Shown in pieces: positions 21,227-61,970 of a stretch of 64,000 nucleotides of DNA. The translations under genes and the position numbers were made by a program. This DNA is from an uncultured Chloroflexia bacterium (GTDB taxonomy: Bacteria > Chloroflexota > Limnocylindria > Limnocylindrales > CSP1-4), in the NCBI GenBank assembly GCA_963712745.1, contig CAVQJC010000001.1, forward strand, positions 320,001 through 384,000. The letters are read 5' to 3'. The notes under the pieces were generated by a model that ran no database searches, was not told the origin of the DNA, and saw only the letters and a list, made by a program, of their open reading frames with translations. Positions within the stretch are counted from its first letter, which is position 1. The number at the start of each line of letters is the position of its first letter.

Positions 21227-21840
21227 TCATGCCGACCCTGGAGTGCCCGGACGAGGGTCACCTCGTCGGCATACTCGAGGTCGCCACCCAACGGGAATAC
21301 CGCGGGCGATGCGTGGAGACCTCGCCGACGTGCTCGCGCATGCCGCTCGGCCAGGTACATCGCGGTAGCCTCCCCTCGAGCGTGGGATTGGTCGCGAGCA
21401 CGATCTCGGCGTAGCGATCACCCGCGACTGCGACGCTCTTGCGACACGCTCGAGCAGCTCGCGGATGTGCAGACGCTCGGGCCCGATGCCGTCGACCGGC
21501 GAGATGGCGCCGTGCAGGACGTGATAGCGACCCTTGAACGCGCGCGTACGCTCCAGTGCGAGCACGTCGAGCGGCTCCTCGACGACACACAAGCCTGGTG
21601 TCGTCGCGGCCCGGATCGAGGCAGATCGGACACAGCGGCCCGGTGCTGATGTCGAAACAGCGCTCGCAGAAGACGACGTCGTCGCGCACGGAGATGAGCG
21701 CAGCAGCCAGGGCGCGGGCCTCGGTGTCGGGTGCACGCAGCAGAGTGGTAGGTCAGCCGTTGCGCGGTCTTGGGACCGATGCCGGGTAGTCGCGAGAAGG
21801 ATTCGATGAGCCGTGCGACCGGCTCGATGAGACCGGTCAC
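21227..21840 (-). CDS. recR: Recombination mediator RecR (several indels)
   Basis: [13 protein letters not shown]4 finger, [28 protein letters not shown] pieces in different frames. Confidence 0.9.
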
Positions 21841-21864
21841 CGGCGGAGGATGCCTCAGCCGCGG

Positions 21865-22172
21865 CTACATGCCGGGGATCTGCAGGCCACCAGTCACACG
21901 CGCGAGCTTCTGCTCGGCCGTCGATGCGCGCATTCGCGAGCGCGTCGCCAACGGCGGCGACGACGAGGTCCTGGAGCATCTCCACGTCGTCTGGGTCGAC
22001 GACGCTCGGGTCGATGGTCACCGACACGATGTCCTGCTTGCCGGTCACGACCGCCTTGACGACGCCGCCGCCGGCGCTGCCTTCGATCTGGAGCGTCTCC
22101 GAGTTCCTGCTGGATGCGCGCCATGTCGGCCTGCATCTGCTGGGCCATCTTGGCCAGGTTGCCCATGCCCAT
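21865..22172 (-). CDS. YbaB/EbfC nucleoid-associated protein (indels)
   Basis: [33 protein letters not shown]; lies between dnaX and recR. Confidence 0.9.
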
Positions 22173-22201
22173 GCTTGTCTCCTTCGTGGTGTTCGCCTTG
22201 C

Positions 22202-23928
22202 CTAGTCGATGTCTCCGAGGCCTTCGATCTCGCCGTCGAAGATCCGTCGTGCCTGTGAAACGAGATCGCCTTCGCCGGCATCGACCGGTTCGACAAGCTC
22301 CAGGTTCGTCACGACGCAGCGTACCGCCACCGTGCCTCCCATGACGGACGTGATGCCATCCTCGAGCACGATGCGCTTGCGTTCGGCGATGTCGCGCATG
22401 AACGCCTGGTCCTCGGGGAAACCCAGGATCAGGAAGCCATCGCGCATCTCTACCGGCCGGCAGGTCGTGACCAGGGGCCGATTGGCCGGGTTGCTGCTGA
22501 TGGCGGCCACGATCTGCGGCCAGGCACCGCGGATCCGCGCGATCTGATCGCCCGGCTCGGACGGAGCACCGCTGGCGCGCGAGGGAGGGCGAGGTTGTCG
22601 CCGACCGCGGCTGGCGGGCTCATCGGCGGGAGCACAGCGCGAGGTCGACGGCTGAGTCGCAGGAGCGCCAGGTCGGGACCGGTCCGGCGCTCGCGTGCTG
22701 GCTGGCGCGGCTCGTCCGCTCGGCGGGGAGGCAGGGGCGGGCTGGCGCACGAGGTGGCGGTGGAAGCCGGCTGAGCTGCCGGCTGTGTCGGGCTGGGTTC
22801 ACGGGCGCCGCAGACATCTGGACTCGACACGGCCGGCGTCGTCGCGATCGGACCGTCCGCGGCGGCCAACAGACACAGCTCCAGCTGCCAGCGGTAGCCA
22901 CCCAGGCCACTGCGGCTGGCATCGATCCCGCTGAGCCTGCGGGCAGCCTGTGCCAGTGGTCGGGCTGCGGCACGTTCGTCAGCCGACTTCGACGACATGC
23001 GTTCGACGAGCAGTGCGCGCAGACGCTCGACGAGCTGCTCACTGAAGGCCACCAGGTCACGACCCTCGGCCTCGAGGCTATCGAGGACGTGGACACCGGC
23101 GAGCACATCGCCCTCGACGAGCGCGCTGATGAAGCGGTCGACGGCTGCGTCGTCTGCCAGACCCAGGAGTTCCTGGATGGAGGCTGGCGGTGATCGGGTC
23201 GGCGACGCTGACGAGGACCTGGTCGAGCATCGATTCGGCATCGCGCATGCCGCCACCGGCCATGCGTGCGACCAGTGCGATGGCTTCCGGCTTCGACCGT
23301 GCGCCCTTCGGTCTCGAGGATGCGCCGGAGCTTGCCCTCGATCTCGGGGATCGACAGCGGGCCGGAAGGTGAAGCGTTGCAGCCGCGACACGACCGCCGG
23401 GCGGATCTGGCTCGGATCGGTCGTGCAGAAGATGAAGAGGACGCCATCGGGCGGCTCCTCGAGCGTCTTGAGGAGCACGTCCCAGCCCTCCTTGATGCGC
23501 TGCACCTCATCGATGATGAAGACCTTGCGCCGCAGGTCGGAGGCGGCGGTGTAGACGCGCGGCACCAGCTCGCGCATGTCATCGACCTTGTTGTTGGACG
23601 CTGCATCGAGCTCGACCACGTCGAGTGCACGACCTTCGCGGATGGAGACGCAGTTGGCGCAGGCATCGCACGGTTCGCCATCTCGCAGGTCGGTGCAGTT
23701 GACGGCCTTGGCCATGATCCGCGCCGTCGAGGTCTTGCCCGTGCCGCGCGGCCCGACGAACAGGAAGCCATGGCCGACCCGGTCGAGCCGGACGCCATTG
23801 CGCAGCGTCTGGACCACCGCGTCCTGACCCACGATCTGCGAGAAGGTCTGGGCGCGGAAGCGTCGATAGAGCGCCTGGTTGTCGCTACCTCGGTGATCGG
23901 CGGACGAAGCGATCGGGGTATCTGTCAT
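22202..23928 (-). CDS. dnaX: DNA polymerase III subunit gamma/tau (indels)
   Basis: ALYRRFR, GPRGTGKTS, ELDAASNN, FIIDEV, LLKTLEEPP; C-terminal domain in ORF 22202..22750. Confidence 0.93.
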
Positions 23929-23976
23929 CGGACTCCGTGGGCCGATCGGGCGCAGACGCGCCGCTGGGTGAGTGTT

Positions 23977-24245
23977 GCCGTGCACCCTCCGTCGACCACG
24001 ACGATGCGCGGGCCCTACCGGAACGATCGGCTCGGACCAGGCCGGTCCGCGGCACCCGGCGAACAGCGCTTAACGCTGCTTCCTTCCGGACCTGACGTGG
24101 TTCACGCGTCGCCGCTGCGCGGGACCCGATCCTCAACACCGATCATCCCGTTGGCTTCCACGTAACGCGGGCCTCGGGAGGGAATTCAGCCCTGCTGGAG
24201 CGGTTTGCAGGTACAGGGCACCGCTAGTTCCCCGCCTAGCACGGC
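23977..24245 (-). ncRNA. ffs: Large (Bacillus-type, Alu-domain) SRP RNA
   Basis: 5' GCCGTGCTAGGCGGGGAACTAGCGGTGCCCTGTACCTGCAA, helix 8 TCAGGTCCGGAAGGAAGCAGC, closing GTGCACGGC; upstream of dnaX. Confidence 0.93.
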
Positions 24246-24274
24246 CTACGCATCATAGCGGCCACCGGCGGGAG

Positions 24275-24362
24275 TGGCGGAGAGGGCGGGATTCGAACCC
24301 GCGATGGGTTTCCCCATACGGCATTTCCAGTGCCGCGCACTAGGCCTCTATGCGACCTCTCC
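24275..24362 (-). tRNA. tRNA-Ser(GGA)
   Basis: Anticodon arm CGGCA-CTGGAAA-TGCCG, long variable arm, CCA. Confidence 0.95.
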
Positions 24363-24396
24363 GCGTGTGGGACCCGAGCCGGGCTCCACGGGCTAG

Positions 24397-24482
<86 letters not shown>

Positions 24483-24545
24483 GGGTCCGGCGAGAGTCTA
24501 GCAAAGCCGCGGCACGCCCGAAGAACGGACACGGGTCAGCGTGGC

Positions 24546-25002
24546 TCACGCTCGTGAGCCCAGCATCGCGATGTCCGGACGCAGTTCCGCAGCATCGTCA
24601 CGCAGGATGCCGGAGACGACGTCAAGGCGGCGAGGCAGCCCAGCGCGCCTCGGCCAGGTTGACCGCCGACGAACAGGCGCCCTCGGTCGGATCGGGCAGT
24701 GCGTAGACGACACCATCCGCATCGCACTGCTGCAGGGCGCCCGACGCACATGGCGCACGGCTCGACGACACAGAAGACGGTGGTGCCCGCGAGCGACCAG
24801 CGACCCGACCCGCGTGGCCGCCTCGCGCAGCGCGATGATGACGGCGTGCGCGGTCGGGTCGCCAGCTACTGCGGACGGCTTCTCGGCCATGCGCGATGAG
24901 GGCCTCGTCGAGCACGGCGACGGCGCCATTCGCGCGCTCGCCTGCGGCGCCCGCCTGGGCGGCCTCCGCAAGTGCGGCGCGCATGTACAGCTCGTAGTTC
25001 AT
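24546..25002 (-). CDS. tadA: TadA-family deaminase homolog lacking the catalytic Glu (HAV); indels
   Basis: YMRAALAEA..GAVAV, DPTAHAVIIALREA, VVEPCAMCVG, GAC; canonical position next to tRNA-Ser, ffs and dnaX. Confidence 0.8.
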
Positions 25003-25168
25003 CGCGAGGCCTGGGCTTCCTCATCGGAGCGATACGGAGTCGCGCTTCGACGCCATCGTACCGTGCGGCGATTGGCGCTACCATCGCGCTGCAGCACGTA
25101 GCGTAGCGGCACGTTCGACTGAGGGTCAAGGCAGGCGCGCCTGCCGCAGAGAGGGTCTGGGTCAGGAC

Positions 25169-26381
25169 ATGGCACGAAACAGGACGCATCGGGATCCTCA
25201 CCGGCGGTGGCGACGTTCCCGGCCTCAACAGCGTCATCAAGAGCGTGACGTATCGAGCGACGGAGCTCGGCTACGAGGTCATCGGTGTCCGGCGAGGCTG
25301 GGAAGGCTTGACGCACCAGGAGCCGGGTGAACGCATGGACAGCCGCTACGTCGTGCCGCTCGATCGTGCCTCGACGCGGACCATCGATCGCACCGGCGGC
25401 ACCTGGCTGCATAGCTCGCGCACCAATCCACGCAAGATGCGTGCCGACAATCTGCCGCCGCACCTCGATGCCGCGCGGGCCGCGCAGATGCGCACGTCCG
25501 ATGACATCTACGACGTCACCCCGGTGGTGCTCGAGAACATCGAGGCCATGGGCCTCGACTACCTCATCCCCATCGGCGGTGATGACACGCTGAGCTTCTC
25601 CCAGACGCTGCACGAGAACGGCGTACCGCTCATCGCCATCCCCAAGACGATGGACAACGATGTCCAGGGCACCGAGTACTGCATCGGCTTCTCCACGGCC
25701 ATCACCCGCGCCAAGGACGCCATCAACAGGCAGCGCACCACCCTGGGCTCACACGAGCGCATCGGCGTCTTCCGCATCTTTGGTCGCGATGCAGGCTTCA
25801 CGGCGCTGTACACCGCATTCGTGACCTCGGCGCGCTGCCTCATCCCCGAGGCGACCTTCGACCTCGACCGGCTCGCAGGCATCCTCGCCGATGACCACGC
25901 CAACAACCCCAGCCACTACGCCTTCGTCATCGCCGCCGAAGGCGCGATGTGGGAGGGTGGCAGCATCCAGGAGGTCGGCGAGGCGGATGCCTTCGGACAC
26001 CGCCACAAGGCCAACATCTCCGAGGTCCTCGCTGCTGCCATCAAGCAGCGCACGGGTATCGACACGATCCACTCGGACCTGACCTATGACCTGCGATCGG
26101 GTGAGCCGGACGCGGTCGACCAGATGGTGGCGATCACCTTTGCCAATACGGCCATGGAGTTGGTGGCCGACGGCCAGCGCGGGCGCATGATGGCTATCCG
26201 CGGTGGCCGCTATGCCCACTCGCCCCTGCCTGACCCAGCCCTCGGTGCCGTCTCGGTTGACGTCGAGACGATGTACAACCAGGACCGCTTCAGGCCGATC
26301 TACGCGAACCTGCTTGGCAAGCCGGCGCTGCTGGGCCATCCGGTGGCGCCGCTGACCGAAGCGGAGTCGATATCGGCTTGA
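25169..26381 (+). CDS. pfkA: 6-phosphofructokinase (PfkA family); indel near the start
   Basis: IGILTGGGDVPGLN, IGGDDT, PKTMDND, IGFSTA motifs. Confidence 0.9.
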
Positions 26382-30802: not shown

Positions 30803-31605
30803 CGGCCGCAAGCCAGGCGAGCCGACGACCTGCCAAACCGCGTCGCTCGCCGGCGATCTACGTTGCCATCGCGGTCTTCGTACTCATCACCCTCGTCTCG
30901 GTCAGCGAGGAGTGGGGCATCGGCCTCGACATCGGCTCGATCCTCGCCGACATCGGACGCGGCGAGGGCATCATCCGCGAACTGCTCAACCCCAACTGGG
31001 CCTTCCTGCCGCGTACCTTCGAGCCACTCCTCGAGACCTTTGCGATGGCGGTAGTGGCCGCCTTCATCGGCTGCACCGTGGCCCTGCCCATCGTCTTCTT
31101 CGCCTCTCGTGTGACCGTCCCCAACCGCATCACCCTGACGCTCACGCGCGGCGTCCTCAGCGTCATCCGGGCCATCCCGGACTTCCTCTACGCCCTGATC
31201 TTCGTGGCGGCTATCGGTATCGGCCCCCTCGCAGGTGTCGTGGCGTTGATCTTCTTCAACGTCGGCGTCGTCGCCAAACTGCTCTCGGAGACCGTCGACA
31301 GCGTGGACACCGGACCCATCGAGGCCATCGACGCGGGCGGTGCCAGCCGCACGCAGATGGTGCGCTGGTCGGTACTGCCCCAGGTGTTGCCGAACTACGT
31401 GGCCTTCTCGCTCTACGCCTTCGAGCTCAACGTGCGCGCCTCCACGGTCATCGGTGTCGTCGGCGCCGGCGGCATCGGCACGCTGCTCTTCACGCAGTAC
31501 CGCTTCTTCCAGTGGAGCAACGTCTCGGTCATCGTCATCGAACTGTTCTTCATCGTCTTCGTCATCGAGCTGATCTCGATCCGCCTCCGACGCCGGCTGG
31601 TATAG
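30799..31605 (+). CDS. phnE: Phosphonate-type ABC transporter permease
   Basis: RAIPD, KLLSE, FELNVRAS..GVVGAGGIG. Confidence 0.9.
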   Translation: MTAASQASRRPAKPRRSPAIYVAIAVFVLITLVSVSEEWGIGLDIGSILADIGRGEGIIRELLNPNWAFLPRTFEPLLETFAMAVVAAFIGCTVALPIVFFASRVTVPNRITLTLTRGVLSVIRAIPDFLYALIFVAAIGIGPLAGVVALIFFNVGVVAKLLSETVDSVDTGPIEAIDAGGASRTQMVRWSVLPQVLPNYVAFSLYAFELNVRASTVIGVVGAGGIGTLLFTQYRFFQWSNVSVIVIELFFIVFVIELISIRLRRRLV

Positions 31606-31609
31606 CGGC

Positions 31610-32473
31610 ATGATCTCGACTGCCGGTCGCCCGCAGCGGCCCTCGACAGCCAAGCGCAATCTCTGGATCGTCGGCGCACTAGCCCTCTTCCTGGCCAGCC
31701 TGTTCAGCCTCGACATCGATGCTGCGGACATCCTGGCCCTGCCGCGGGGCGTCGCCACCGTGCTCTCCAAGATGTTCTTCGACGGCGGGCCGGATTGGGC
31801 ATTCCTCGACAACTCCGTGAACGCCATGATCGAGTCGCTCCAGATGGCCTGGGTGGGCACCATCATCGGGGCCACCCTGTCTATCCCGCTCGGCTTCCTG
31901 GGCGCCAAGAACGTATCTAGCGGCCTCGTCTCGAACGTCGTGCGCCAGATCCTCAACGGCATCCGCGCCTTCCCTGAGACTCATCCTTGCCATCGCCATC
32001 TTCATCCCCATCGCGGGACTCGGACCGGTCGCCGGCGCCCTGGCCATCGGCATCCACTCCGCGGGCACCCTGGGCAAGCTCACGGCCGAGGCCATCGAGG
32101 GCATCGACCCCGGGCCCATGGAGGCGGCCCGAGCGGCGGGCGGCCGCGGTCTACAGGTGCAGCGCTGGGGCGTCCTGCCGCTGGTACTGCCCGAGCTGGT
32201 GGGCTTCTGGCTCTACCGCTTCGAGATCAACATCCGCGCCGGTGCGGTGCTTGGCGTGGTCGGGGCCGGCGGTATCGGCTTCCTGCTCGACCAGACCATC
32301 AAGTTCGGGCGCTTCCCGCAGGCCGGCATGGCCATCATCGTGGTCGTGGTCGCCACCATCCTCGTCGATGGGCTGTCAGGACGCGTGCGACGTCGCATCA
32401 TCGAGGGTGCCGATGCCAAGGTCGCTCCGGAGGCTGAGAGTCGATCATCGACCCCGCCATGGCTGGCTCATGA
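31610..32473 (+). CDS. phnE: Second PhnE permease (indels)
   Basis: IRAFPE, LGKLTAE, FEINIRAGAVLGVVGAGGIG; reconstructed stop overlaps the next ATG (ATGA). Confidence 0.85.
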
Positions 32474-33496
32474 GCTCGCCCTTCAGGCTGCGCGATCGCG
32501 CAGCCCGCGAGGCCGAGGAGGTCGAGCGTCTCGCCCCGGCCGCGCTTCGCTCGATCGACTCACGCGGTCGTGAACGGCACGAACAACCCGACCGCTTGCG
32601 CACCATCTTCGAGCGTGACCGCGACCGCATCACGCACAGCAAGGCCTTTCGGCGCCTGAAGCACAAGACGCAGGTCTTCGTGAACCCCGAGGACGATCAC
32701 TACGTCACGCGCCTGACGCACACCATCCAGGTGACCCAGATCGCGCGCTCGCTCGCAGACGCACTCTCACTGAACGAGCCGCTGGCCGAGGCCATCGCGC
32801 TGGGCCACGACGTCGGCCACTCGCCCTTCGGCCATACCGGAGAGGAAGCACTCTCGCCGTACTTCCCGACCGTCGGCGGGTGGCACCATGCGGCGCAGAG
32901 CGTGCGAGTCTACGAGGTGCTCGAGGACCTCAACCTTGCTTGGGAGGTGCGTGACGGTATCCGCGCACACTCGTGGAAGATCGAGCCGCCACCGACGTAC
33001 GCAGGAGGCCTCTGTGTGCGCTACGCCGACCGTATCGCCTACCTGACGCACGACGCGCTCGACGCCATGCGTGCCGGGCTGCTCACGCAGGACGAGTTCC
33101 CGACGCGCCATCCGTGCCCGCTTCGGCCCGCCCGGCTCGGCCTGGGTCGGGCGGCATGATCGAGGCCGTGGTGGACGGCTCGACTGGCCGAGCGGCGACG
33201 TGACGATGGACGATGAGGTCCTCGCCGACATGACCGAGCTGCGCGACTTCATGTTCGAGCGCGTCTACCTGGCGCCGACGCAGCGCGATCACCATCGCCA
33301 GGCGGTCGAGGTCATCCGTCGCCTGCTGGACCACCACCTCAGCCACCCCGACGAACTGCCTGCTTCGTACCGCGACAACGACGCCGACCGCGTCGTGCAG
33401 GCGGCCGACTACGTCACCGGCATGACCGACCGTTTCGCGCTGCGCAGGCACGAGCAGCTGTTCGGCTACCGCGGCATCGACGACCCGCAGCTGTGA
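32470..33496 (+). CDS. dgt: HD-domain dNTP triphosphohydrolase (dGTPase, Dgt family); indels
   Basis: FERDRDRI, AFRRLKHKTQVF, TRLTH, HDVGHSPFGHTGE, ADYVTGMTDRFA. Confidence 0.88.
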
Positions 33497-34105
33497 GACG
33501 TTTCGACGACCGCTGAGCGGACTGCGCGTGGGCCTCGACATGGACGGCGTCCTGGCTGACTTCAACGCTGGCTGGATGCGGCGCTACAACGCGGACTTCG
33601 AGGCGCAGTTGCACCCGTCGATGGTGGTCACGTGGGATGGCTTGCACCGACTTACCCATTTCGAGTCGATGGTCGACTTCTGGGACTGGGCCCGCGGGGA
33701 TGAGCACTCCACCTTCCGGGATGCACCGGCCTTGCCGGGTGCTGTCGAGGCCGTGCCAAGCGCATCGCGCAGAAGCATCGCCTCGTGATCGTCAGCTCCA
33801 AGTTCGACTGGGCCATCCCTGATTCGATGGCCTGGCTGGCGGCGCATGCCATCCCGGCGCGCGAGGTGCACTTCCTGTGGGACAAGACCCTGGCCGCCTG
33901 CGACGTCTACATCGACGATGCACCGCACCAGTTGGCGGAGCTCAGCCGTCGGCTGCCCGAAGCGACCGTCTGTCGCATGGTGCATCCGTGGAACGAACCG
34001 ATGGCCGGCGTGCTCGACGTGCACTCATGGCACGAGTTCGAGACGATCGTCGATGACGCGGCCGTTCGCAAATCCGATCGCGCTGGTCGCACGACCGAGG
34101 GATAG
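33493..34105 (+). CDS. 5'(3')-deoxyribonucleotidase, NT5C/HAD family; indels
   Basis: GLDMDGVLADF, PGAVEA, YIDD, PWN motifs. Confidence 0.8.
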
Positions 34106-34122
34106 TTGCAGGCGCAACTATC
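34101..34122. promoter_or_regulatory. Palindromic operator GATAGTTGC-N4-GCAACTATC upstream of pirin
   Basis: Perfect 9-bp inverted repeat just upstream of an extended -10 (TGGCATACT). Confidence 0.65.
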
Positions 34123-34158
34123 CTGTGGCATACTGCGGTCCAGGAAAGGAGACCCCAC

Positions 34159-35161
34159 GTGCCAGCCATCAGCGTTGACGACATCACTGCCCTGCAGCGT
34201 ATCCCCTCCCCCGATCCAGTGACCGCTCGGCCTCGTGCGGTGAAGAGCGTCACACGGGCCCCCAGTGCGTTCGAGGGCGAGGGTTTCCCGGTGCGCCGGG
34301 CCTTCGCGGGTGTCGACCTGCGCGACCTCGACCCGTTCATCCACCTCGACCAGATGGGCGAAGTGGAATACGCGCCCGGTGAACCGAAGGGCACGCCATG
34401 GCATCCGCATCGCGGCTTCGAGACCGTGACCTACATGATCGACGGCATCTTCGAGCATGCCGACTCGAACGGCGGCGGCGGCGTCATCACCAACGGCGAC
34501 ACCCAGTGGATGACCGCTGGTGCGGGCATCCTGCATATCGAGAAGCCGCCGGAGCATCTCGTCATGAGCGGTGGCCTCTTCCATGGCTTCCAGCTCTGGG
34601 TGAACCTGCCCAGGGACAAGAAGTGGGCCGATCCGCGTTACCAGGACCTGCGCGCCGATGAAGTGGCGTTGGTCGCCTCGGATGACGGCGGTGCCCTGCT
34701 GCGCATCATCGCGGGAGAGATCGCCGGCTTCACAGGTCCCGGGTCGACCTATACGCCGATGATCCAGATCCACGCCACCATCAGCCCAGGCGCCGCGGTA
34801 TCCCTGCCCTGGCGAGCCGACTACAACGGCCTGCTCTACGTGCTCAATGGCGAGGGCACGGTCGGGCCCGGAGAAGCGCCCCATCAGCATGGGCCAGCTC
34901 GCGGTGTACGGCGCGGGCAACGTGCTCAGCGTGGCCGCCTCGGCGGTGCAGGAGAGCCGCAGCCCCAGCATGGACGTGCTCATCCTCGGCGGTCGGCCCA
35001 TCCGTGAGCCGGTGGCATGGATGGGCCCGTTCGTGATGAACACGCGCGAAGAAGTCATGCAGGCGTTCAGCGACTACCAGGCTGGTCGCCTCGGCTCGAT
35101 CCCGGCGGTGCATGGCACGCCGGACCGGGTCATCTCGACGGACGGCCAGCCCCGCGCCTGA
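34159..35161 (+). CDS. Pirin family protein (indel near 34870)
   Basis: DPFIHLDQ, HPHRGFETVTY, QWMTAGAGILHIE, QLWVNLP, GPFVMNT. Confidence 0.92.
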
Positions 35162-35193
35162 GAGCGGGCGGATCGATAACGAGCACCCAAGGC

Positions 35194-36037
35194 ATGCGGC
35201 GATTCCAGCAAGTGGATGTCTTCTCGCCGATGCCTCTGGGCGGCAACCCGGTGGCCGTGGTGCTCGACACGGAAGGCCTCACGAGCGCACAGATGCAACG
35301 CTTCACCAGCTGGACCAACCTGTCTGAGGCGACGTTCCTGCTGCCCCCGTCGGACCCTGCCGCCGACTATCGCGTGCGTATCTTCTACGCGGCAGGTGAG
35401 CTGGATTTCGCCGGCCATCCGACACTCGGCAGCTGCCACGCATGGCTCAGCGGCGGGCGGAACGCCCCAGACACCCGACATCATCGTGCAGGAATGCCCC
35501 CTGGGTCTGGTACGCATCCGACGGAGTGAGCGCGGTCTCGCCTTCGAGGCCCCACCGACGCAGCGCGCAGGCCCGGTCAGCCTGCGGAGCTGGACCGTTT
35601 CGCGGGCCATCCTGGGCATCGGCGCGGGGGACGTGATGGACTGTCAGTGGGTCGACAATGGACCCGGGTGGGTCGCGACTGATGCTCCGCTCAGCCGAAG
35701 ACGTGCTGGCGTTGAAGCCGGCCGCGGATGGGGGCGAGCGCGTGGACATCGGCGTCGTGGGTCCGTACCCGCACGGCGCGGAATGTGCGTATGAGGTGCG
35801 CGCCTTCTTCAGCAACGATCGCGGCGACCTGGTGGAGGATCCGGTGACGGGCAGTCTCAATGCGTCGCTCGCCCAATGGCTGGTCAGCAGTGGGCGATTC
35901 GAGGCACCCTACGTGGCCCGCCAAGGCACCGTGCTGGGTCGTTCCGGTCGGGTCCACATCAGCCAGACCGACGACGGCGCATCTGGGTGGGTGGCGATAC
36001 CCACACCATCATGGTGGGCTCGGTCGACCTCGGCTGA
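35194..36037 (+). CDS. PhzF family isomerase/epimerase (indels)
   Basis: QVDVFS..GNPVAVV, NLSEATF, FAGHPTLG, EDPVTGS. Confidence 0.88.

Positions 36038-42143: not shown

Positions 42144-42151
<8 letters not shown>
41447..42151 (-). CDS. Conserved hypothetical protein (DUF6544-like)
   Basis: LPAAAQRWL, LAELAWVP, FGGVRIPS patterns; overlaps the glnS stop. Confidence 0.6.
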
Positions 42152-43876
<1,725 letters not shown>

Positions 43877-55579: not shown

Positions 55580-55655
55580 TGGCGCGCCCGGCGAGACTCG
55601 AACTCACGACCTTCTGGTCCGCAACCAGATGCTCTATCCGCTGAGCTACGGGCGC
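55580..55655 (-). tRNA. tRNA-Arg with anticodon GCG
   Basis: GCGCCCGTAGCTCAGCGGATAGAGCA-TCTGG-TTGCGGA-CCAGA-AGGTCGTGAGTTCGAGTCTCGCCGGGCGCGCCA; A20 arginine identity element. Confidence 0.92.
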
Positions 55656-55662
55656 CTAAGAC

Positions 55663-55754
<92 letters not shown>

Positions 55755-55952
55755 TCTTCAGCCGGCCGATGGTAGCACGCACCGGACGCGGGCCGAGTAT
55801 CATCGCCTTCCTACTGCTACAGAAGCGGAATCGCACCGCGCTCTGTGCTCGCGTCCGCACGAGCCGGACTAGTCGTGTCGTGCGATCTGGGGAGTTCCCC
55901 AACTCGATCATGAGGCGAGCCTCTCGTGGCTCGCAACCTGGAGACCGTCCAC

Positions 55953-56853
55953 ATGTCCAAACGCGTCGTCCTTCTTGGCCACCCGGTATCCCATTCGCTG
56001 TCGGAAGCGCTACAGCGAGCCGCCTTCGAGGCCGCAGGGGTCGATGCCACCTACGAACCGATCGACACACCGCCGATCGATCTCGCGCAGGCCGTTGCCG
56101 CCCTGCGCGGCGATGACTACCTGGGGGCCAACATCACGCTGCCGCACAAGGATCGTGTGGCCTCGATGGTCGATCGCCTCACTGATGAGGCGCAGCACAC
56201 CGGGGCGGTCGATACCATCACGCGTGACGGCGATCAGCTGGTCGGGCACAACACCGACGTGCTCGGCTTTCCGTCCCGCACTCGACGCGCTCGTGGGACG
56301 CCAGAAGATGCCACGTACGGCGGTCGTGCTCGGCGCCGGTGGCGGGGCTCGCGCGGTCGTCTATGCCCTCATTCGTGCCTCGTTCCAGCACGTCATCGTT
56401 TTCAACCGCCATCTGCACCGTGGCGAGAAGATGATCAGCCACTTCGGGCGCAGCGCGTCTCACATGGAGTTGCGCGCCAAGCCATGGCACGAGTCGGTCA
56501 TCGAGGCGGAACTGGCCAAGACCGACATCCTCATCAATGCCAGCTCGGTCGGGCGCGACCCGAACGAGTCGCCCCTGCCCGCCGAGCTGCTGCCAGCGGA
56601 CATCCTGGTGCTCGATCTGCACTATGTGCCTGAGGAGACAAAGCTCATCCGCGATGCCCGCGAAGCTGGTGCCAAGACCGTCATGAACGGTGACATCATG
56701 CTTGTCGGCCAGAGTGCTGCGGCCTTCGAGCTGTGGACAGGAGAGAAGGCGCCGCTCGACACGCTTCGCAAGCAACTCGAGGCTTCCCGCAATGACCCTG
56801 ATGTGCCGGTCAGCGCCGGGGAGAATGGCGAGCCAATAGCCACCGCCGAGTGA
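55953..56853 (+). CDS. aroE: Shikimate dehydrogenase (indel near 56270)
   Basis: GHPVSHSLS, GANITLPHK, GHNTD, LGAGGGARA, INASSVG. Confidence 0.9.
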
Positions 56854-57863
56854 CCGATAGCACAGCTGGCTCACGCCTGGCGCTGGAACGCGCGTTCGCC
56901 ATCGAGGCCGTCGCGGCAGCCAGCCAGCTTTGCCGTACGGTGCGTGACGCCTTCGATGCGTCCGAGGCGACCTCGAAAGCCGACAGCTCTCCGGTCACGG
57001 TCGCGGACCTTGGCGCCCAGGCCCTGGTCAGCATCGCGCTACGCGAGCAGCTCCCCGGCGACGGGCTCATGGGCGAGGAGGACTCGGGGCCGCTGACCGC
57101 GTCGCCCGAACTGGCGGCGGCTGTACTCGCACGGGTACAGGAGCAGCGGCCCGACGTCGGGATGGATGAGTTGCTCGTCGCGCTCGACCGCTGCGACGAT
57201 CCCGGCGGACCCGGGCGCCGCTGGTGGACGCTCGATCCGGTCGATGGCACCAAGGGCTTCCTGCGTAATGAGCAATATGCCGTCGCGCTGGCGCTCATCG
57301 AAGATGGTGGGGTGGTGCTCGCGGTGATGGGATCGCCCAATCTGCCGCTCCGGGGTGAGCCCGGCGACCCCGGTGCTACGGGCTGCCTGTTCGTGGCTGA
57401 GCGCGGCCATGGCACCTACCAGATGGCTCTCGCAGACGTCGCGCCTGGCATTACCGGACAGCGCATCGCGGTGGCCGAGATCGAGTCCGCAGCCGAGGGG
57501 CGCTACGCCGAGTCGGTCGAGTCAGCCCACTCGAATCAATCGCAGTCGGCGCAGATCGGCCAAGCCTTGGGCATCACCGCCGAGCCACTGCGCCTCGACA
57601 GCCAGACGAAGTACGCGGTGGTCGGTCGTGGTGATGCCTCGATCTACCTCCGGCTGCCACGCGGTGACTACCGCGAGAACGTATGGGACCACGCAGCGGG
57701 CTACCTCATCGTGAGCGAAGCCGGGGGCCGCGTCTCGGATGTGGAGGGCCGGCCGCTCGACTTCAGCACCGGTACGCGCATGACCGACAACCGCGGCATC
57801 GTGGCCACGGTGGCGTCCATCCACGACGAGGTGCTCGCGGCCGTCGCGGCTTCCTTGGGATAG
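56850..57863 (+). CDS. 3'(2'),5'-bisphosphate nucleotidase, HAL2/SAL1-like
   Basis: KADSSPVTVAD, GEED, WTLDPVDGTKGFLR, ESVE, LDSQTKY, VWDHAAG. Confidence 0.88.
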   Translation: MTDSTAGSRLALERAFAIEAVAAASQLCRTVRDAFDASEATSKADSSPVTVADLGAQALVSIALREQLPGDGLMGEEDSGPLTASPELAAAVLARVQEQRPDVGMDELLVALDRCDDPGGPGRRWWTLDPVDGTKGFLRNEQYAVALALIEDGGVVLAVMGSPNLPLRGEPGDPGATGCLFVAERGHGTYQMALADVAPGITGQRIAVAEIESAAEGRYAESVESAHSNQSQSAQIGQALGITAEPLRLDSQTKYAVVGRGDASIYLRLPRGDYRENVWDHAAGYLIVSEAGGRVSDVEGRPLDFSTGTRMTDNRGIVATVASIHDEVLAAVAASLG

Positions 57864-58318
57864 CACGCGCGCCGGTGAAGTCTGCGGGTGCTGGCGCGGT
57901 CGGCGTAGTTCACGTAGTCGGCGGGCGTCGCGCGCATCGGATCAGCCCATGCATCCTGCTCGGCTGCTCACCGAAACACCGCATGTGGCTGCAGCGGCCG
58001 GGATCGAGGGAGCGACGTCAGGTCGTCGCATGAGAGGTGCCAACTGGAGGCTCGGGTGGCGTCTGACGAGTATCGGCCACCCTTGTGTGGCGATTTGGTG
58101 CATCAGAGGCACCAAACGGCGATCGCGACGGCCATCTGGCCATTCAGGCAGCCCCGATCCAGTGCTCGGGGGTCACTTGGCACGCGTGATGCAACACGGC
58201 CCCGACGAGCGCGCGCGTGATGCAAAGAGTGCCAGGGGGCGCTCAGGTAGGCCTTGAAGGTGAGCGTTGAAGGCCGGCTGGACTCGACGCGCGGGTCGCG
58301 CGCCACGGCGCCAAGGGA

Positions 58319-59134
58319 CTACGAGCGCTTTGTGGCTTCGGACAGGGACATCACCAGTGCAGCCATGCGCGAGATGTCATGCCCCTCTGGTCCCAGGGCA
58401 TCGACAAGGGCGCTGGCAACGATGACGCCATCGGCCAACTGTGCCAGCGAACGTGCATGGGCAGGCTTCGAGACACCGAAACCGACTGCCACCGGTACGG
58501 GGCTGACAGCACGGATCTCCTTGAGGAAACGGCCCACGCCGGGCGGCAGGGACTTGCGTGCACCAGTCACGCCAGCGAGCGAGACGGCGTACAGGAACCC
58601 CTGGCTGCGCGAGGCCACGAAGCGGCGGCGATCGACCGGCGTGGTCGGTGCGACCAGGTAGATGATGCCGATGCCGTGGCGCGCAGCCTCCTGTTCAAGC
58701 TCAGCGCCTTCGTCCGGTGTCAGATCGGCGAGGATGAAGCCCGATACGCCGGCCTTGCCGAGCCGCTCGAGCACGTTGGCACCGTCGCGGCCACCGAGCA
58801 CTTGGTTGACATAGCCCATGGCCACGAGCGGTGTGTCCGGACGTGCGGCGTGGATGCGGCCGACCAGCTCGATGGATGCGTCGAGGTTGGCACCGGCCGC
58901 GAGCGCGATGGAGCTGGCGCGCTGGAGCGTGGCACCGTCCGCGAGCGGGTCGGAGTAGGGCAAACCGACCTCGAGGATATCGGCGCCGCCATCGATCAGC
59001 GCGATGGCGATGCGGGCCGACGTCTCCGCGTCGGGATAGCCGGCCACAGCGTACGGGATCAGCGCTGCTCGGCCATCTGCGTCCGCGGCAGCGAAGGCAG
59101 CCGCGATCCTCATTGGACCTGCTACGCCAGTCAC
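58319..59134 (-). CDS. trpA: Tryptophan synthase alpha chain
   Basis: [31 protein letters not shown]. Confidence 0.95.
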
Positions 59135-61970
59135 GCTACGCCTCCCGCGTGCATGCCCGCCATGAGGCGATCCTCGATGGCCGCGATGTCCTTGTCACCA
59201 CGTCCCGACAGCCCCATGAGCACGATGTCGTCGTCGTCGGGTGCCGCTATCGAGGTCCCACGTAACAGCTCGATCATGGCTGACACGGCATGGGCCGGTT
59301 CCAGCGCGGGCAGGATGCCTTCGGTCATCGTGAGCAGCCGCACCCCCTCGAGCGCCTCTTCATCGGTCGCGCTCAGGATCTCCAATCGACCCGCCGCATA
59401 AAGCGCCGAGAGCTGCGGTCCGATGCCCGGATAGTCGAGCCCAGCCGAGATCGAGTGCGCCTCGGTGACCTGGCCATCGTCATCCTGGAGCAGGTATGAG
59501 CGCGACCCATGCAGCACACCGGGAGTGCCGCCGCCGAGAGCAGCCGCGTGCTTGCCGTCAAGGCCCTCCCCCGCCGCTTCAACGCCGATGATGCGTGTTT
59601 GCGTTTCGCCGATGAACCGCGCCAGCAAACCGATGGCGTTGGAGCCACCGCCGACACAGGCGATAGCGATATCCGGCAGGCGGCCCTCGAGCGTGTTGAC
59701 CTGCTCGGCGGCTTCGTCGCCGATGACGCGCTGGAGGTCACGCACCAGGGATGGGAACGGATGCGGCCCCACGGCAGACCCGAGGATGTAGTGGCTCGTC
59801 TCGACGTTGGTGACCCAGTCGCGCATCGTCTCGTTGACGGCATCCTTGAGCGTGGCCGTGCCCGAGGTGACCTCACGTACTTCGGCACCGAGCGCGCGCA
59901 TGCGCAGGACGTTGGGTGCCTGACGGCGGATGTCTTCAGCGCCCATGTAGACGACACAATCGAGGCCCAGCAGGGCACAGGCGGTCGCGGTGGCCACACC
60001 ATGCTGGCCCGCGCCGGTCTCGGCGATGACGCGATGCTTGCCCAGGCGCAACGTGAGCAGGGCCTGACCGAGCGCGTTGTTGATCTTGTGCGCACCGGTA
60101 TGGTCGAGGTCTTCACGCTTGAGGTACAGGCGCAGCCGACCAGGTTCGCGGCCCGCCCGCAGTTCCAGCTCGCGCGCGAGGCGATCGGCACGGTAGACCG
60201 GGGTGGGCCGACCGACGTAGTGATGCGAGAGATCACGTAGCTCGGACCAGAATGCAGGATCGATTCGGATGGCTTGGTATGCAGCCTCAAGGTCGAGCAG
60301 CGCAGCCATCAGCGTCTCCGGCACGAAGCGGCCGCCGAACTGGCGTTCCACGCCCCAGCGCCCGTGTTCATCCGGCTCGAGCAGGCCAGCATCGACCGGG
60401 TGGGGGCCGAACGCGACCGTGGGCCGGTCGAGGCGCGCGGCGCTGGCGCGCTTGATGAACAACGCCACCCTGAAGGGGTCCTTGACTGGACCGCGCCGAG
60501 CCCGAGGTGCAACCTCGACGCCGCTGGAGACGTCCACACCGACGGCCGGGATATCGATCAAGGCACCGGCTACGTTGGACGCGTCGAGTCCACCAGCCAG
60601 CACCACCGGCGTACGCCCGGCGATCGTCTGGGCGACCGACGCCGAGGCACGCTGCCCGGTGCCGCCGAGGACCCCAGGTGCAGCCGTATCGAGCAGGATG
60701 GCGCGCAGGTTCGACCTGGACTCGTACTCCACCACATCGGACAAGAGCGCCGCGAGATCAGGTGGGCTGAGCTGCGTGTCGCCCGCGGGCACGTGCAGGA
60801 CCTTGAGCACTGGTAGCGGGATCAGATCCAGGTCGGCAGGCCGGCTCGCTGCCATGCAGCTGCACCATGTCGAGACCCAGCCGAGTGGCCATGGCCGCGA
60901 CCTCGGCCGGATCCTGGTCGGCGAAGACGCCCACCAGCAAGGGTCCATTGCCCGGCGATCGAGGCCACGCGCGATGGCGATCAGCTTGGTCGCCTGGGCC
61001 TCATCGAGGACGCGCGGACTGCCGGGCACGAAGTTGAAGCCGATAGCATCCGCGCCGGCCGCGATCGCGGCCGCCAAGCCGTCGGCCTCCGGGATACCGC
61101 AGATCTTCACGAACGGCTGGCGGCCGTCGACGGCAGGATCGACGCCCGGTCCCGCCTTGCGTGCCAGCGCTCACCAAGGTGGCGACGCGCGACTCGATCT
61201 CGCCGGGATCGGTGCCACTGCGCATCAGGTCTTCGCCGACCAGAGCCGCATCGAAAGCGAGTGCCCGCCAGCGACGCAGCGTGCTCGCGTCCCGCACGCC
61301 CGACTCCGCCATCACGAGGCGATCGTCGGGAACCTGCGAGCGCAGCCGGTCGGAGAGCTCGGCATCGACCTCGAGCGTGCGCAGGTCGCGGTTGTTGATA
61401 CCGATAAGGCGCGCTTCGGTGGCCACCGCCGCTGCCAGTTCCCGCTCGTCGTGCGCCTCCACGAGTGGCTCGAGGCCAACACGCTGGGCCGCCCGCACCA
61501 GGCGCGCCAGTCGCTTGGGCGGGTGCAGGGCAGCGAGCAGAAGCACGGCGTCAGCGCCGGCTGCGCGAAGCAGTGGCAGCTGGCGTGCATCGACCACGAA
61601 CTCCTTGGCCAGGATCGGCAACGGTGGTGGCTGCGCGCGCCAGCCGAAGATCGTCGAGGGAGCCACCGAACCAATGCGGCTCGACGAGCACCGAGATCAT
61701 CGAGGCGCCGCCGGCCTGGTAGGCACGAGCGCGCTCCGCCACGTCGAGCTCGCCATCGATCATCGCGCCAGCCGAAGGCGAGCTGCGCTTGATCTCGGCG
61801 ATGAGGTGTAGGCCGGGGCGCGCCAGACGGCCGACCACGTCACGACGAATAGGCCCGGCGCCCGATGCACGCGTGACCGCACGCAGATCGTTCGACCCGA
61901 ACTCGGTGGCAACGTCCTCGGCGCGTCGTGTGGCGATCTGGTGCAGCACCGAATCCGCTCTCGTGCTCAT
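59131..61970 (-). CDS. trpB: Probable TrpC-TrpF-TrpB fusion (TrpF-TrpB junction open; TrpC joined across a presumed indel)
   Basis: TrpC motifs [26 protein letters not shown]; TrpF motifs [23 protein letters not shown]; TrpB motifs [44 protein letters not shown]. Confidence 0.85.

What the first reader, a model, noticed from the sequence alone, without database searches (positions are those of the whole stretch)
24546..25002. Catalytically dead, Tad3-like TadA retained alongside a G34 arginine tRNA: candidate inosine-free decoding system with a pseudo-deaminase
Seen: the gene at the canonical tadA position reads DPTAH-A-V. The Val codon is GTC at 24840-24842, two substitutions away from GAG/GAA, so an indel error does not explain it. 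The Zn ligands H and PCAMC are intact, while the EVPVGA and G-N substrate motifs have drifted to ERANGA and GRE. Established: HAE supplies the catalytic Glu for A34-to-I editing of tRNA-Arg(ACG), and Glu-to-Val at this site marks the non-catalytic eukaryotic subunit Tad3/ADAT3. Bacteria using Arg(GCG) usually lack tadA altogether. Inference: the lineage replaced Arg(ACG) with Arg(GCG) (55580-55655), freeing TadA from catalysis. The retained fold may have a new Zn/RNA-binding role or act in a heterodimer with another deaminase.
Basis: partly seen in the sequence, partly recalled or inferred. Interest (0 to 1): 0.85.

Follow-up and report, generated by a model that had tools for sequence, protein, structure and literature searches.

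The report
Dead TadA kept across Limnocylindria
A group of soil and freshwater bacteria (Limnocylindria) changed their arginine tRNA so that it no longer needs editing, yet for a long time they have kept a well-conserved copy of the editing enzyme that lacks its catalytic residue, so the protein probably now does another, unknown job.

Summary
The gene at 24546-25002 (-) reads DPTAHAV (Val = GTC, 24840-24842) and keeps the His and PCxMC zinc ligands. It sits at the tadA position, upstream of tRNA-Ser(CGA), tRNA-Ser(GGA), SRP RNA and dnaX.

The valine is a clade trait, not an error. Every readable orthologue carries a hydrophobic residue there: 39 of 39 extracted ORFs from two families, and 80 of 80 further GTDB loci (V73, I5, L1, plus one HPV).

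In 150 genomes of the class the partition is clean:
- Family f3 has HAE TadA and tRNA-Arg(ACG).
- Families f1 and f4 have HAV and tRNA-Arg(GCG), with no real ACG.
- The streamlined family f2 has GCG and no TadA-like gene.

The HAV proteins form one clade. They are under purifying selection (closest pairs dN/dS 0.05-0.12) and fold like TadA (TM 0.89). They have lost TadA's RNA-contact residues. Most genomes show no second TadA-like deaminase, so a Tad3-style heterodimer is unlikely.

The four frameshifts in the window copy are all +1 insertions, the error mode seen elsewhere in this contig. They are probably assembly artefacts. No public reads were available to confirm this.

Verdict: a conserved bacterial pseudo-deaminase derived from TadA, of unknown function.

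The parts
24546..25002 (-). TadA-derived gene with HAV in place of HAE (about 150 codons), interrupted in this assembly by four +1 insertions near 24864, 24811, 24742 and 24644
   Evidence: The orthologue P0001 scores 92.9 bits to the TadA model NF008113 over positions 6-143 of 165.
24840..24848 (-). Codons CAC-GCC-GTC = His-Ala-Val. His is the zinc ligand. Val replaces the catalytic Glu.
   Evidence: V in 39 of 39 orthologues. V, I or L in 80 of 80 further loci.
24397..24482 (-). tRNA-Ser(CGA), 64 nt downstream of the gene's stop codon
   Evidence: The same neighbour is found in f1 and f4 loci, and beside HAE tadA in G052, G168 and G089.
24275..24362 (-). tRNA-Ser(GGA)
23978..24244 (-). Large bacterial SRP RNA
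   Evidence: RF01854, 185.3 bits.
22450..23985 (-). dnaX (clamp-loader gamma/tau), the last member of the conserved string
   Evidence: ORF. One 427-aa tblastn match to the C2 orthologue. The homologous neighbours in L084 and L079 hit DNA_pol3_delta2 and DNAX lid.
55580..55655 (-). tRNA-Arg(GCG), anticodon loop UUGCGGA: the G34 tRNA that makes A34 editing unnecessary
   Evidence: A second copy lies on C2. No ACG among the 47 tRNAs of the genome, and no ACG pattern match.
55663..55754 (-). tRNA-Ser(GCU), just upstream of tRNA-Arg(GCG) on the minus strand. This pair lies within 3 kb of the HAV gene in 11 of 80 related loci.
25169..26381 (+). Divergent phosphofructokinase gene. Its ATG at 25169 is out of frame with the conserved body, which starts at about 25185 (one more indel).

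Best explanation
The gene is the in-place descendant of tadA in Limnocylindria (Chloroflexota).

In the common ancestor of two families (f1, which holds this genome, and f4) two things changed:
- The single CGN-box tRNA-Arg changed from A34 (ACG, read as ICG) to G34 (GCG). tRNA-Arg(UCG) and (CCG) cover CGA and CGG.
- TadA lost its catalytic Glu (HAE to HAV), and later its anticodon-loop contact residues.

The gene was not deleted, as it was in the streamlined sister family f2 and in two f3 genomes. It has been kept under purifying selection as a roughly 150-residue protein that retains the TadA fold, the His/Cys/Cys zinc site and the TadA-type dimer surface.

Shown:
- Orthology by position.
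- The clade-wide hydrophobic residue at the catalytic position.
- Co-variation with the tRNA anticodon.
- Selection on the protein.
- Loss of the RNA contacts.

Inferred:
- The protein cannot deaminate. This rests on the general-base role of the Glu in this fold and on ADAT3 as precedent.
- The protein now works as a non-enzymatic zinc-bound dimer. Its role is not TadA-like tRNA recognition. My best guess is a structural or regulatory role at protein level, possibly tied to the tRNA-Ser/tRNA-Ser/SRP RNA/dnaX string that it heads.
- The four frameshifts in this window are insertion errors of the assembly.
For: **Position.** The order HAV gene, tRNA-Ser(cga), tRNA-Ser(gga), SRP RNA holds in f1 and f4 loci. 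HAE tadA of G052 (f5), G168 (f3) and G089 is also followed by tRNA-Ser(cga).

**Family.**
- P0001 gives a gapless alignment to solved TadAs.
- The AF2 model has pLDDT 88.2. Its best PDB matches are all TadA, with TM 0.87-0.89.

**Motif.**
- HAV in 21 of 22 genus relatives with an orthologue; the 22nd (G014) is out of frame there.
- HAV in 20 of 20 loci from other f1 genera and from f4. HAE in 30 of 30 f3/f5/G089 loci.
- Of 80 GTDB loci: 73 HAV, 5 HAI, 1 HAL, 1 HPV.
- 35 of the best 150 cluster representatives are HAV.

**tRNA, same 150 class genomes.**
- GCG pattern: f1 39/44, f4 46/50, f2 6/6, f3 7/49. Of the f3 hits only three look like tRNAs.
- ACG pattern: f3 36/49, f1 1/44 (not tRNA-like), f4 0/50, f2 0/6.
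- UCG pattern in both groups: f1 39/44, f4 42/50, f3 21/49.
- TadA model hits: f2 0/6.

**Selection.**
- The closest HAV pairs have dN/dS 0.052, 0.065 and 0.115.
- The 32 HAV rows form one clade, SH-aLRT 100.

**Lost contacts (S. aureus numbering, except Phe149, which is E. coli numbering).**
- Asn42 becomes D or E in 28 of 39.
- Arg94 becomes D in 31 of 39.
- Lys106, Asn123 and Phe149 vary.
- All of these are kept in 25-26 of 26 HAE sequences.

**Dimer.** ipSAE 0.61, best control 0.00, contacts agree at least 94%, pLDDT at least 88. The mark was reached by 20 of 30 solved pairs and by 1 of 23 single chains. TadA dimers are solved, so this pass may reflect likeness to them.

**Errors.**
- The four changes are all +1 insertions.
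- By my reading, 11 of 13 other frame switches in the window are also +1.
Against: - No reads could be laid. No public run holds more than 20% of the words of 23900-25400, and that share is about the size of its tRNA and SRP RNA part (my inference; nothing was laid).
- Four insertions in 456 nt is about ten times the window's average (about 13 in about 22 kb). Only one other stretch (21.6-22.3 kb) is similarly dense. Real decay in this one organism is therefore not excluded.
- Nothing shows what the protein does. Only four positions are fixed differently from HAE TadA: V54, T74, F76 and V86. No new site is visible.
- Upstream neighbours differ between lineages.
- dN/dS over distant pairs is high (median 0.42), probably because dS is saturated at high GC.
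- G089 carries both an HAE and an HAV gene, each on a short contig.
- Inactivity is inferred, not measured.
- The genome is 84.6% complete, so absence of an ACG tRNA or of a true TadA in it is not proven.
Confidence: 0.72

Rival explanations
1. Simple pseudogene. In the organism of this contig the gene is really broken by four frameshifts and is decaying, whatever its relatives do.
For: - There are four frameshifts in 456 nt, about ten times the density elsewhere in the window.
- There are no reads to check them.
- The substrate tRNA is absent.
Against: - All four changes are +1 insertions. 11 of 13 other frame switches in the window are the same kind and affect ordinary conserved genes.
- The pieces contain no stop codon or deletion. 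All 28 clade-invariant residues are kept.
- Other long-contig bins of the genus with low completeness show the same kind of breaks: G014, G015 and G020.
- Most relatives have intact ORFs.
Confidence: 0.15
2. Tad3-like subunit. The dead protein pairs with an active CDA-fold paralogue and supplies binding, as ADAT3 does for ADAT2.
For: - It has the same Glu-to-hydrophobic change with zinc ligands kept, as in ADAT3 (passages of PMC7713142).
- G000 has three other CDA-fold genes with HAE or HGE, on C4, C17 and C7.
- The dimer surface is predicted to be retained.
Against: - 27 of 39 f1 genomes with a hit have a single TadA-like match at E <= 1e-8, so there is no shared partner.
- The paralogues match the TadA model only over about positions 6-113 and lack its C-terminal helices.
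- No A34 tRNA was found in G000.
- The protein has no extra tRNA-binding domain.
- The RNA contacts are lost.
Confidence: 0.05
3. Still an enzyme. The zinc site works with another general base, or on another substrate such as a free base or nucleoside.
For: - The zinc ligands and Glu80 of (T)LEPC are invariant.
- Position 41 in the pocket, Asn in TadA, is acidic in 28 of 39.
- Selection on the protein is strong.
Against: - Position 41 is not invariant (also N, P, H, R).
- Position 54 tolerates V, I and L but never an acid.
- No new conserved polar residue appears.
- Glu is the stated general base of the fold, and its loss defines the inactive ADAT3 (PMC7713142; PMC3239186).
Confidence: 0.05
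4. Translated leader. The ORF is kept open mainly because its transcription and translation carry RNA polymerase into the tRNA-Ser/SRP RNA genes 20-150 nt downstream. The protein itself matters little.
For: - The gene is tightly linked upstream of tRNA-Ser(cga) in f1, f4 and f5.
- No partner or new site could be found.
Against: - This would select for an open frame, not for dN/dS of 0.05-0.12, invariant zinc ligands and a conserved core.
- f2, G044 and G090 do without the gene.
Confidence: 0.05

Closest known systems
Bacterial TadA, tRNA adenosine(34) deaminase (NCBIfam NF008113; PDB 1z3a, 2b3j, 7cph)
   Same: - Same fold, including the C-terminal helices (TM 0.87-0.89).
- Gapless alignment at 30-34% identity.
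- DPTAH and EPCxMC motifs and the zinc ligands.
- Predicted homodimer.
- Same genomic position upstream of tRNA-Ser, SRP RNA and dnaX.
   Different: - Val, Ile or Leu replaces the catalytic Glu.
- Asn42, Arg94, Lys106, Asn123 and Phe149 are lost.
- The protein is more acidic: mean net charge -5.5 against -1.6.
- It scores 92.9 bits for P0001, and about 87-125 bits for the best hits of other f1 and f4 genomes, below the 150-bit cut-off.
- No tRNA-Arg(ACG) substrate is present.
Eukaryotic Tad3/ADAT3, the pseudo-catalytic subunit of ADAT2/3
   Same: It is a TadA-derived domain with HAx, where x is hydrophobic (Val218 in yeast). Zinc ligands are kept, and it is non-catalytic (passages of PMC7713142; PMC3239186).
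   Different: - ADAT3 arose by duplication beside an active ADAT2. It carries an N-terminal tRNA-binding domain and serves an expanded set of A34 tRNAs.
- Here there is one gene and one domain, no active partner in most genomes, and no A34 tRNA. The likeness is convergent.
Loss of tadA with ACG-to-GCG replacement in Mollicutes (Yokobori et al. 2013, PMC3711424). Other bacteria that use GCG: Thermotogae, Spirochaetes and CPR (PMC8007984, PMC8629427). TadA loss linked to loss of the target tRNA (PMC6063277).
   Same: - Same decoding outcome: GCG plus UCG (plus CCG) and no inosine.
- UCG is present before or along with the switch (passages).
- Within this class, f2, G044 and G090 follow this route, with no TadA.
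   Different: In those cases the gene disappears. In f1 and f4 an inactivated orthologue is kept and conserved.

Membership tests
TadA (NF008113, tRNA adenosine(34) deaminase) | Whole-protein score at or above the curated cut-off (150 bits) | tested here: not met
   P0001 scores 92.9 bits. Best hits of other f1 and f4 genomes score about 87-125 bits. f3 HAE proteins score 130-157 bits.
TadA (NF008113, tRNA adenosine(34) deaminase) | H(C)xE motif with the catalytic Glu | tested here: not met
   HAV in the window. V in 39 of 39. V, I or L in 80 of 80.
TadA (NF008113, tRNA adenosine(34) deaminase) | His plus PCxxC zinc ligands and the EPCxMC motif | tested here: met
   H52, C82, C85 and E80 in 39 of 39. 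Readable in the window pieces.
TadA (NF008113, tRNA adenosine(34) deaminase) | TadA fold with two helices after strand 5 | tested here: met
   AF2 pLDDT 88.2, helices at 133-139 and 141-144. Top Foldseek hits are all TadA.
TadA (NF008113, tRNA adenosine(34) deaminase) | Anticodon-loop contacts: Asn in strand 2, the basic residue after strand 4 (Lys106), Arg70, Arg94, Asn123, and the Phe of the C-terminal helix. The list is taken from PMC3711424 section 12 and the PMC3239186 table. | tested here: not met
   These residues are variable or charge-reversed in HAV proteins and kept in 25-26 of 26 HAE proteins of the same class.
TadA (NF008113, tRNA adenosine(34) deaminase) | Substrate tRNA-Arg(ACG) encoded in the genome | tested here: not met
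   aragorn finds 0 ACG among 47 tRNAs. The pattern finds 0 in G000 and 1 of 44 in f1, which is not tRNA-like. The genome is 84.6% complete.
TadA (NF008113, tRNA adenosine(34) deaminase) | A-to-I activity on A34 | not testable with these tools
   Needs an enzyme assay or tRNA sequencing.
Tad3/ADAT3 | Lacks the Glu of HxE while keeping the zinc ligands | tested here: met
Tad3/ADAT3 | Obligate heterodimer with an active Tad2-type paralogue | tested here: not met
   27 of 39 f1 genomes with a hit have only one TadA-like match at E <= 1e-8.
Tad3/ADAT3 | N-terminal tRNA-binding lobe | tested here: not met
   Single-domain protein of 146-160 residues.
Pfam PF00383 dCMP_cyt_deam_1 (CDA-fold zinc deaminase domain) | Score over the gathering cut-off (25 bits) | tested here: met
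   P0001 scores 66.5 bits. The window copy itself is missed because of its frameshifts.

The most novel reading that the evidence does not exclude
The HAV protein is a neofunctionalised bacterial pseudo-deaminase. It would be a zinc-bound TadA-type dimer that took on a selectable non-catalytic job once tRNA-Arg switched to G34. Candidate jobs are binding a ligand in the now hydrophobic zinc pocket, or acting on the expression or processing of the tRNA-Ser/SRP RNA/dnaX string it heads. That would make it a free-living counterpart of ADAT3 that arose without duplication. It would also show that TadA's scaffold has a function beyond inosine formation.
Probability: 0.3. Interest if true: 0.78.

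Novelty: new variant of a known kind. Interest (0 to 1): 0.62.

Why it matters
TadA is treated as a near-universal, essential, single-purpose bacterial enzyme. Lineages that abandon inosine decoding are reported to lose the gene.

Here one class contains all three states side by side:
- active TadA with an A34 tRNA;
- no TadA with a G34 tRNA;
- a conserved dead TadA with a G34 tRNA.

This makes two questions testable. The first is the order of events in a decoding-system switch. The second is why a catalytically dead enzyme persists. It is also a convergent bacterial parallel to eukaryotic ADAT3.

There is a practical point too. Homology-based annotation will call these genes tRNA adenosine deaminase and infer inosine decoding where there is probably none.

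My searches found no report of this. Rafels-Ybern et al. 2019 (MBE) is not held and could not be read. Supplements were closed.

Tried and rejected
**Reads.** The look-up of sequencing runs on 23900-25400 gave no run with more than 0.20 of the words, a share about the size of the tRNA and SRP RNA part. Read laying was therefore not used, and no habitat is claimed.

**Pfam searches of the own genome** missed the window copy because it is frameshifted. They found the intact C2 copy and three paralogues.

**Paralogues as the real TadA.** C4 (RHAE), C17 (NHPFGA..HAE) and C7 (HGE) each reach only 62-68 bits, over the N-terminal two thirds of the model. Rejected.

**Conserved protein neighbours.** The upstream genes differ: pfk in g1, a PMT-type glycosyltransferase in an f4 locus, and a 3-hydroxyisobutyrate-dehydrogenase-like gene in a g6 locus. 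This gave no lead.

**P0029.** This is an HAV protein that keeps EVPVGA and a C-terminal Phe. Its nearest matches in 401 Chloroflexota genomes are f4 proteins at 47-49% identity, and its own genome was not found. Its place among the HAE rows in the tree is on a long branch and is unsure.

**Other steps.**
- A codon-usage script timed out and was dropped.
- Earlier findings of this scan: three look-ups, nothing returned.
- dN/dS medians over all pairs (0.42 for HAV, 0.33 for HAE) are not used as evidence, because dS is saturated.

Full report
**1. What is in the window**

On the minus strand, 25002 to 24546 encodes a CDA-fold protein that starts MNYELYMRAALAEA. The text runs through three frames. 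The codons at 24848-24840 are CAC GCC GTC = His-Ala-Val.

A nucleotide alignment with six orthologues shows four single-base insertions, near 24864, 24811, 24742 and 24644. Nothing else disrupts the gene.

Downstream on the same strand lie tRNA-Ser(cga), tRNA-Ser(gga), the large SRP RNA (185 bits) and dnaX. tRNA-Arg(gcg) is at 55580-55655.

**2. The genome**

The window is C1:320001-384000 of a 4.2-Mb bin in 20 contigs, 84.6% complete with 5.0% contamination.

aragorn finds 47 tRNAs. The Arg anticodons are gcg (two copies, on C1 and C2), tcg, ccg, tct and cct. There is no acg.

Contig C2 (234 kb) is syntenic with the window at about 70-80% nucleotide identity. The bin therefore seems to hold a piece of a second, related organism. 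C2 carries an intact 150-codon copy of the gene, P0001. It also reads DPTAHAV and is also followed by tRNA-Ser(cga).

P0001's best NCBIfam match is TadA: NF008113, 92.9 bits over positions 6-143 of 165, against a cut-off of 150. The other CDA-fold genes on C4, C17 and C7 reach 62-68 bits over the N-terminal part only. The fourth, on C6, matched no NCBIfam family and only a sub-threshold Pfam PF00383 hit. No gene in the bin passes the TadA cut-off.

**3. The valine is a clade trait**

- With P0001 as query, 22 of 24 genomes of the same GTDB genus have an orthologue at 59-86% identity, mostly as intact ORFs. The other two gave only weak paralogue hits. None of 16 genomes of the sister family f2 (1.0-1.4 Mb) matched.
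- HAV is read in 21 of the 22. In G014 the stretch is out of frame.
- With the TadA model on 150 genomes of the class, f1 gave 39/44, f4 49/50, f3 47/49, f5 1/1 and f2 0/6.
- I fetched 13 loci from other f1 genera and 7 from f4. All 20 read DPTAHAV. All 30 loci returned for f3, f5 and G089:C60 read DPT[AG]HAE, with canonical DVP[IV]GA.
- A pattern scan of GTDB species genomes gave 582 confirmed stretches. Of the best 80 kept, most are titled Limnocylindria, Limnocylindrales, Chloroflexota or uncultured Chloroflexia. They read 73 HAV, 5 HAI, 1 HAL and 1 HPV.
- A profile search of 1.84 billion cluster representatives found 335 hits below 1e-30. Of the best 150, 35 are HAV, 109 HAE and 6 other or fragmentary. 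All of the best 17 lack the Glu: 16 read HAV and one (P0017) reads HAP.

**4. Co-variation with the tRNA**

I scanned the same 150 class genomes with a pattern for the D-stem, anticodon and T-loop of tRNA-Arg. The three versions differed only at position 34.

| Anticodon | f1 | f4 | f2 | f3 | f5 |
|---|---|---|---|---|---|
| GCG | 39/44 | 46/50 | 6/6 | 7/49 | 0/1 |
| ACG | 1/44 | 0/50 | 0/6 | 36/49 | 0/1 |
| UCG | 39/44 | 42/50 | 4/6 | 21/49 | 1/1 |

- Only three of the seven f3 GCG hits look like tRNAs. The single f1 ACG hit, in G071, has no complementary stem.
- UCG is not special to the switched lineages. This fits the Mollicute model, in which UCG permits ACG-to-GCG (abstract and passages of PMC3711424).
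- Two f3 genomes, G044 and G090, have a GCG-UCG tandem and only weak TadA-model hits (3e-12 and 2e-10). They look like independent switches with full loss of the gene.
- G139 has both anticodons. Its GCG copy is on a 3.3-kb contig.
- Some counts include genomes the tool flags as unpublished: G103, G127, G141 and G147 in f3, and G123, G132 and G158 in f4. Without them, ACG in f3 is 32/45 and the picture is unchanged.

**5. Orthology**

In f1 and f4 the HAV gene is followed within 20-150 nt by tRNA-Ser(cga), then tRNA-Ser(gga), and usually SRP RNA. HAE tadA of G052 (f5), G168 (f3) and G089 is likewise followed by tRNA-Ser(cga).

In the rows listed, I saw no f3 genome with a second hit in the HAV score range.

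G089 (f4) is the one genome with both forms. The HAV gene is on a 6.0-kb contig in the usual context, and the HAE gene is on a 3.4-kb contig. Contamination and true coexistence cannot be told apart.

I built a tree from 87 rows:
- 32 of my 39 HAV ORFs;
- 23 of 30 HAE ORFs;
- 32 of the 150 representatives, chosen by hand for full length.

Near-duplicates, partial rows and the four unpublished rows were left out. The tree puts the 32 HAV rows in one clade (SH-aLRT 100) on a long stem.

**6. State of the protein**

- **Selection.** NG86 dN/dS for the closest HAV pairs is 0.052, 0.065 and 0.115. The closest HAE pairs give 0.17-0.23. Values for distant pairs are inflated by dS saturation.
- **Fold.** The AF2 model has pLDDT 88.2. 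Its best PDB matches are TadA structures (3ocq, 8e2p, 7cph, 1wwr, 1z3a, 2b3j) at TM 0.87-0.89. The sequence alignment to them has no gaps.
- **Contact residues.** I took residue roles from section 12 of PMC3711424 and the synapomorphy table of PMC3239186. In 26 HAE proteins, Asn42, Arg70, Arg94, Asp104, Lys106, Asn123 and Phe149 are kept in 25-26. In 39 HAV proteins:
  - Asn42 is D or E in 28;
  - Arg70 is S in 21;
  - Arg94 is D in 31;
  - Lys106, Asn123 and Phe149 vary;
  - the zinc ligands and Glu80 are 39 of 39.
- **Fixed differences.** Only V54, T74, F76 and V86 are fixed differently from HAE.
- **Charge.** Mean net charge is -5.5 against -1.6.
- **Dimer.** A two-copy prediction passed with ipSAE 0.61 and best control 0.00. 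The runs agree in at least 94% of contacts, with pLDDT at least 88. The mark was reached by 20 of 30 solved pairs and by 1 of 23 single chains. The interface uses 43-50, 55-70 and 82-92. TadA dimers are solved, so this shows likeness rather than proof.

**7. Partner test**

27 of the 39 f1 genomes with any TadA-model hit at E <= 1e-8 have exactly one hit, the HAV gene (my count of the 'matches' column). An ADAT2-like partner is therefore not a general feature.

**8. The frameshifts**

All four are +1 insertions. Three lengthen a run of G.

I compared open C2 ORFs with the window by tblastn. In one search I read 13 further frame switches in about 22 kb of aligned coding sequence. I left o39 out because it overlaps o84's DNA. 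Of the 13, 11 are +1, one is -1 and one is ambiguous. Three of them lie within 21.6-22.3 kb. The pfk start codon at 25169 is also out of frame with its body.

A one-directional error mode that hits ordinary genes points to assembly error. The local density in tadA is still about ten times the average. No public run holds the stretch. I put artefact at about 0.8.

**9. Comparison with what is known**

- Loss of TadA together with replacement of ACG by GCG is described for Mollicutes (PMC3711424).
- TadA loss is linked to loss of the target tRNA across bacteria (passages of PMC6063277).
- GCG use is noted for Thermotogae, Spirochaetes and CPR (passages of PMC8007984 and PMC8629427).
- A Glu-less, zinc-binding TadA-derived domain is known as eukaryotic ADAT3 (passages of PMC7713142).
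- I found no paper describing a conserved Glu-less TadA orthologue in bacteria. The searches were made, and I read only the listings and the passages named. Rafels-Ybern et al. 2019 is not held, and supplements were closed.

**10. Verdict**

The Tad3-type mechanism and a TadA-type RNA-binding role are not supported.

This is a new variant of a known kind: a clade-wide bacterial pseudo-TadA. Its function is open.

Noticed in passing
G000 contig C2:1-76000 against window 17000-64000: C2 (234 kb, about 5.5% of the bin) is syntenic with the window at about 70-80% nucleotide identity (rRNA 94%). It duplicates the window's tRNA set. The bin probably holds a contig of a second, related organism, which matches the 5.0% contamination figure.
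   Followed up: partly
window 21470-22330, 31600-36000, 42150-43850, 55900-62000: Many conserved genes change frame relative to their C2 orthologues, almost always by +1. This looks like a systematic insertion error of the assembly, and it will break gene calls throughout this contig.
   Followed up: partly
L091 (G044:C26) 1980-2149 and L092 (G090:C21) 1981-2139: Two genomes of the HAE/ACG family f3 instead carry a tRNA-Arg(gcg)-tRNA-Arg(tcg) tandem and have only weak TadA-model hits. They look like independent switches to G34 with complete loss of tadA.
   Followed up: partly
L040 (G089:C60) and L090 (G089:C56): One f4 genome has both an HAE TadA (184 bits, the best in the class) and an HAV gene. 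Each is on a short contig and each is followed by tRNA-Ser(cga). This is either contamination or a rare coexistence.
   Followed up: partly
proteins P0029 and P0062 (library representatives): P0029 is HAV but keeps EVPVGA and a C-terminal Phe, so it may be an intermediate form. P0062 reads HPI at the same place, so it may be an independent Glu-less TadA. Neither source genome was found.
   Followed up: partly
G000 C17:431201-431295: aragorn reports a tRNA with a four-base anticodon (gaag) and undetermined identity. Given the insertion errors of this assembly, it may be a tRNA with one spurious base rather than a frameshift suppressor.
   Followed up: no
G000, whole genome: A tRNA-Ile with anticodon tat is called alongside three tRNA-Ile(gat) and two CAU tRNAs. 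From memory, a UAU tRNA-Ile is uncommon in bacteria. Several expected tRNAs (Cys, most Leu and Gly) are missing from the 47 found.
   Followed up: no
related loci, e.g. L079 3620-3815; G108:C8, G072:C8, G083:C4 (coordinates): In many f1 and f4 genomes tRNA-Arg(gcg), often paired with tRNA-Ser(gct), lies 1-10 kb from the HAV gene (13 of 80 loci within 3 kb). In the window the distance is 31 kb.
   Followed up: partly
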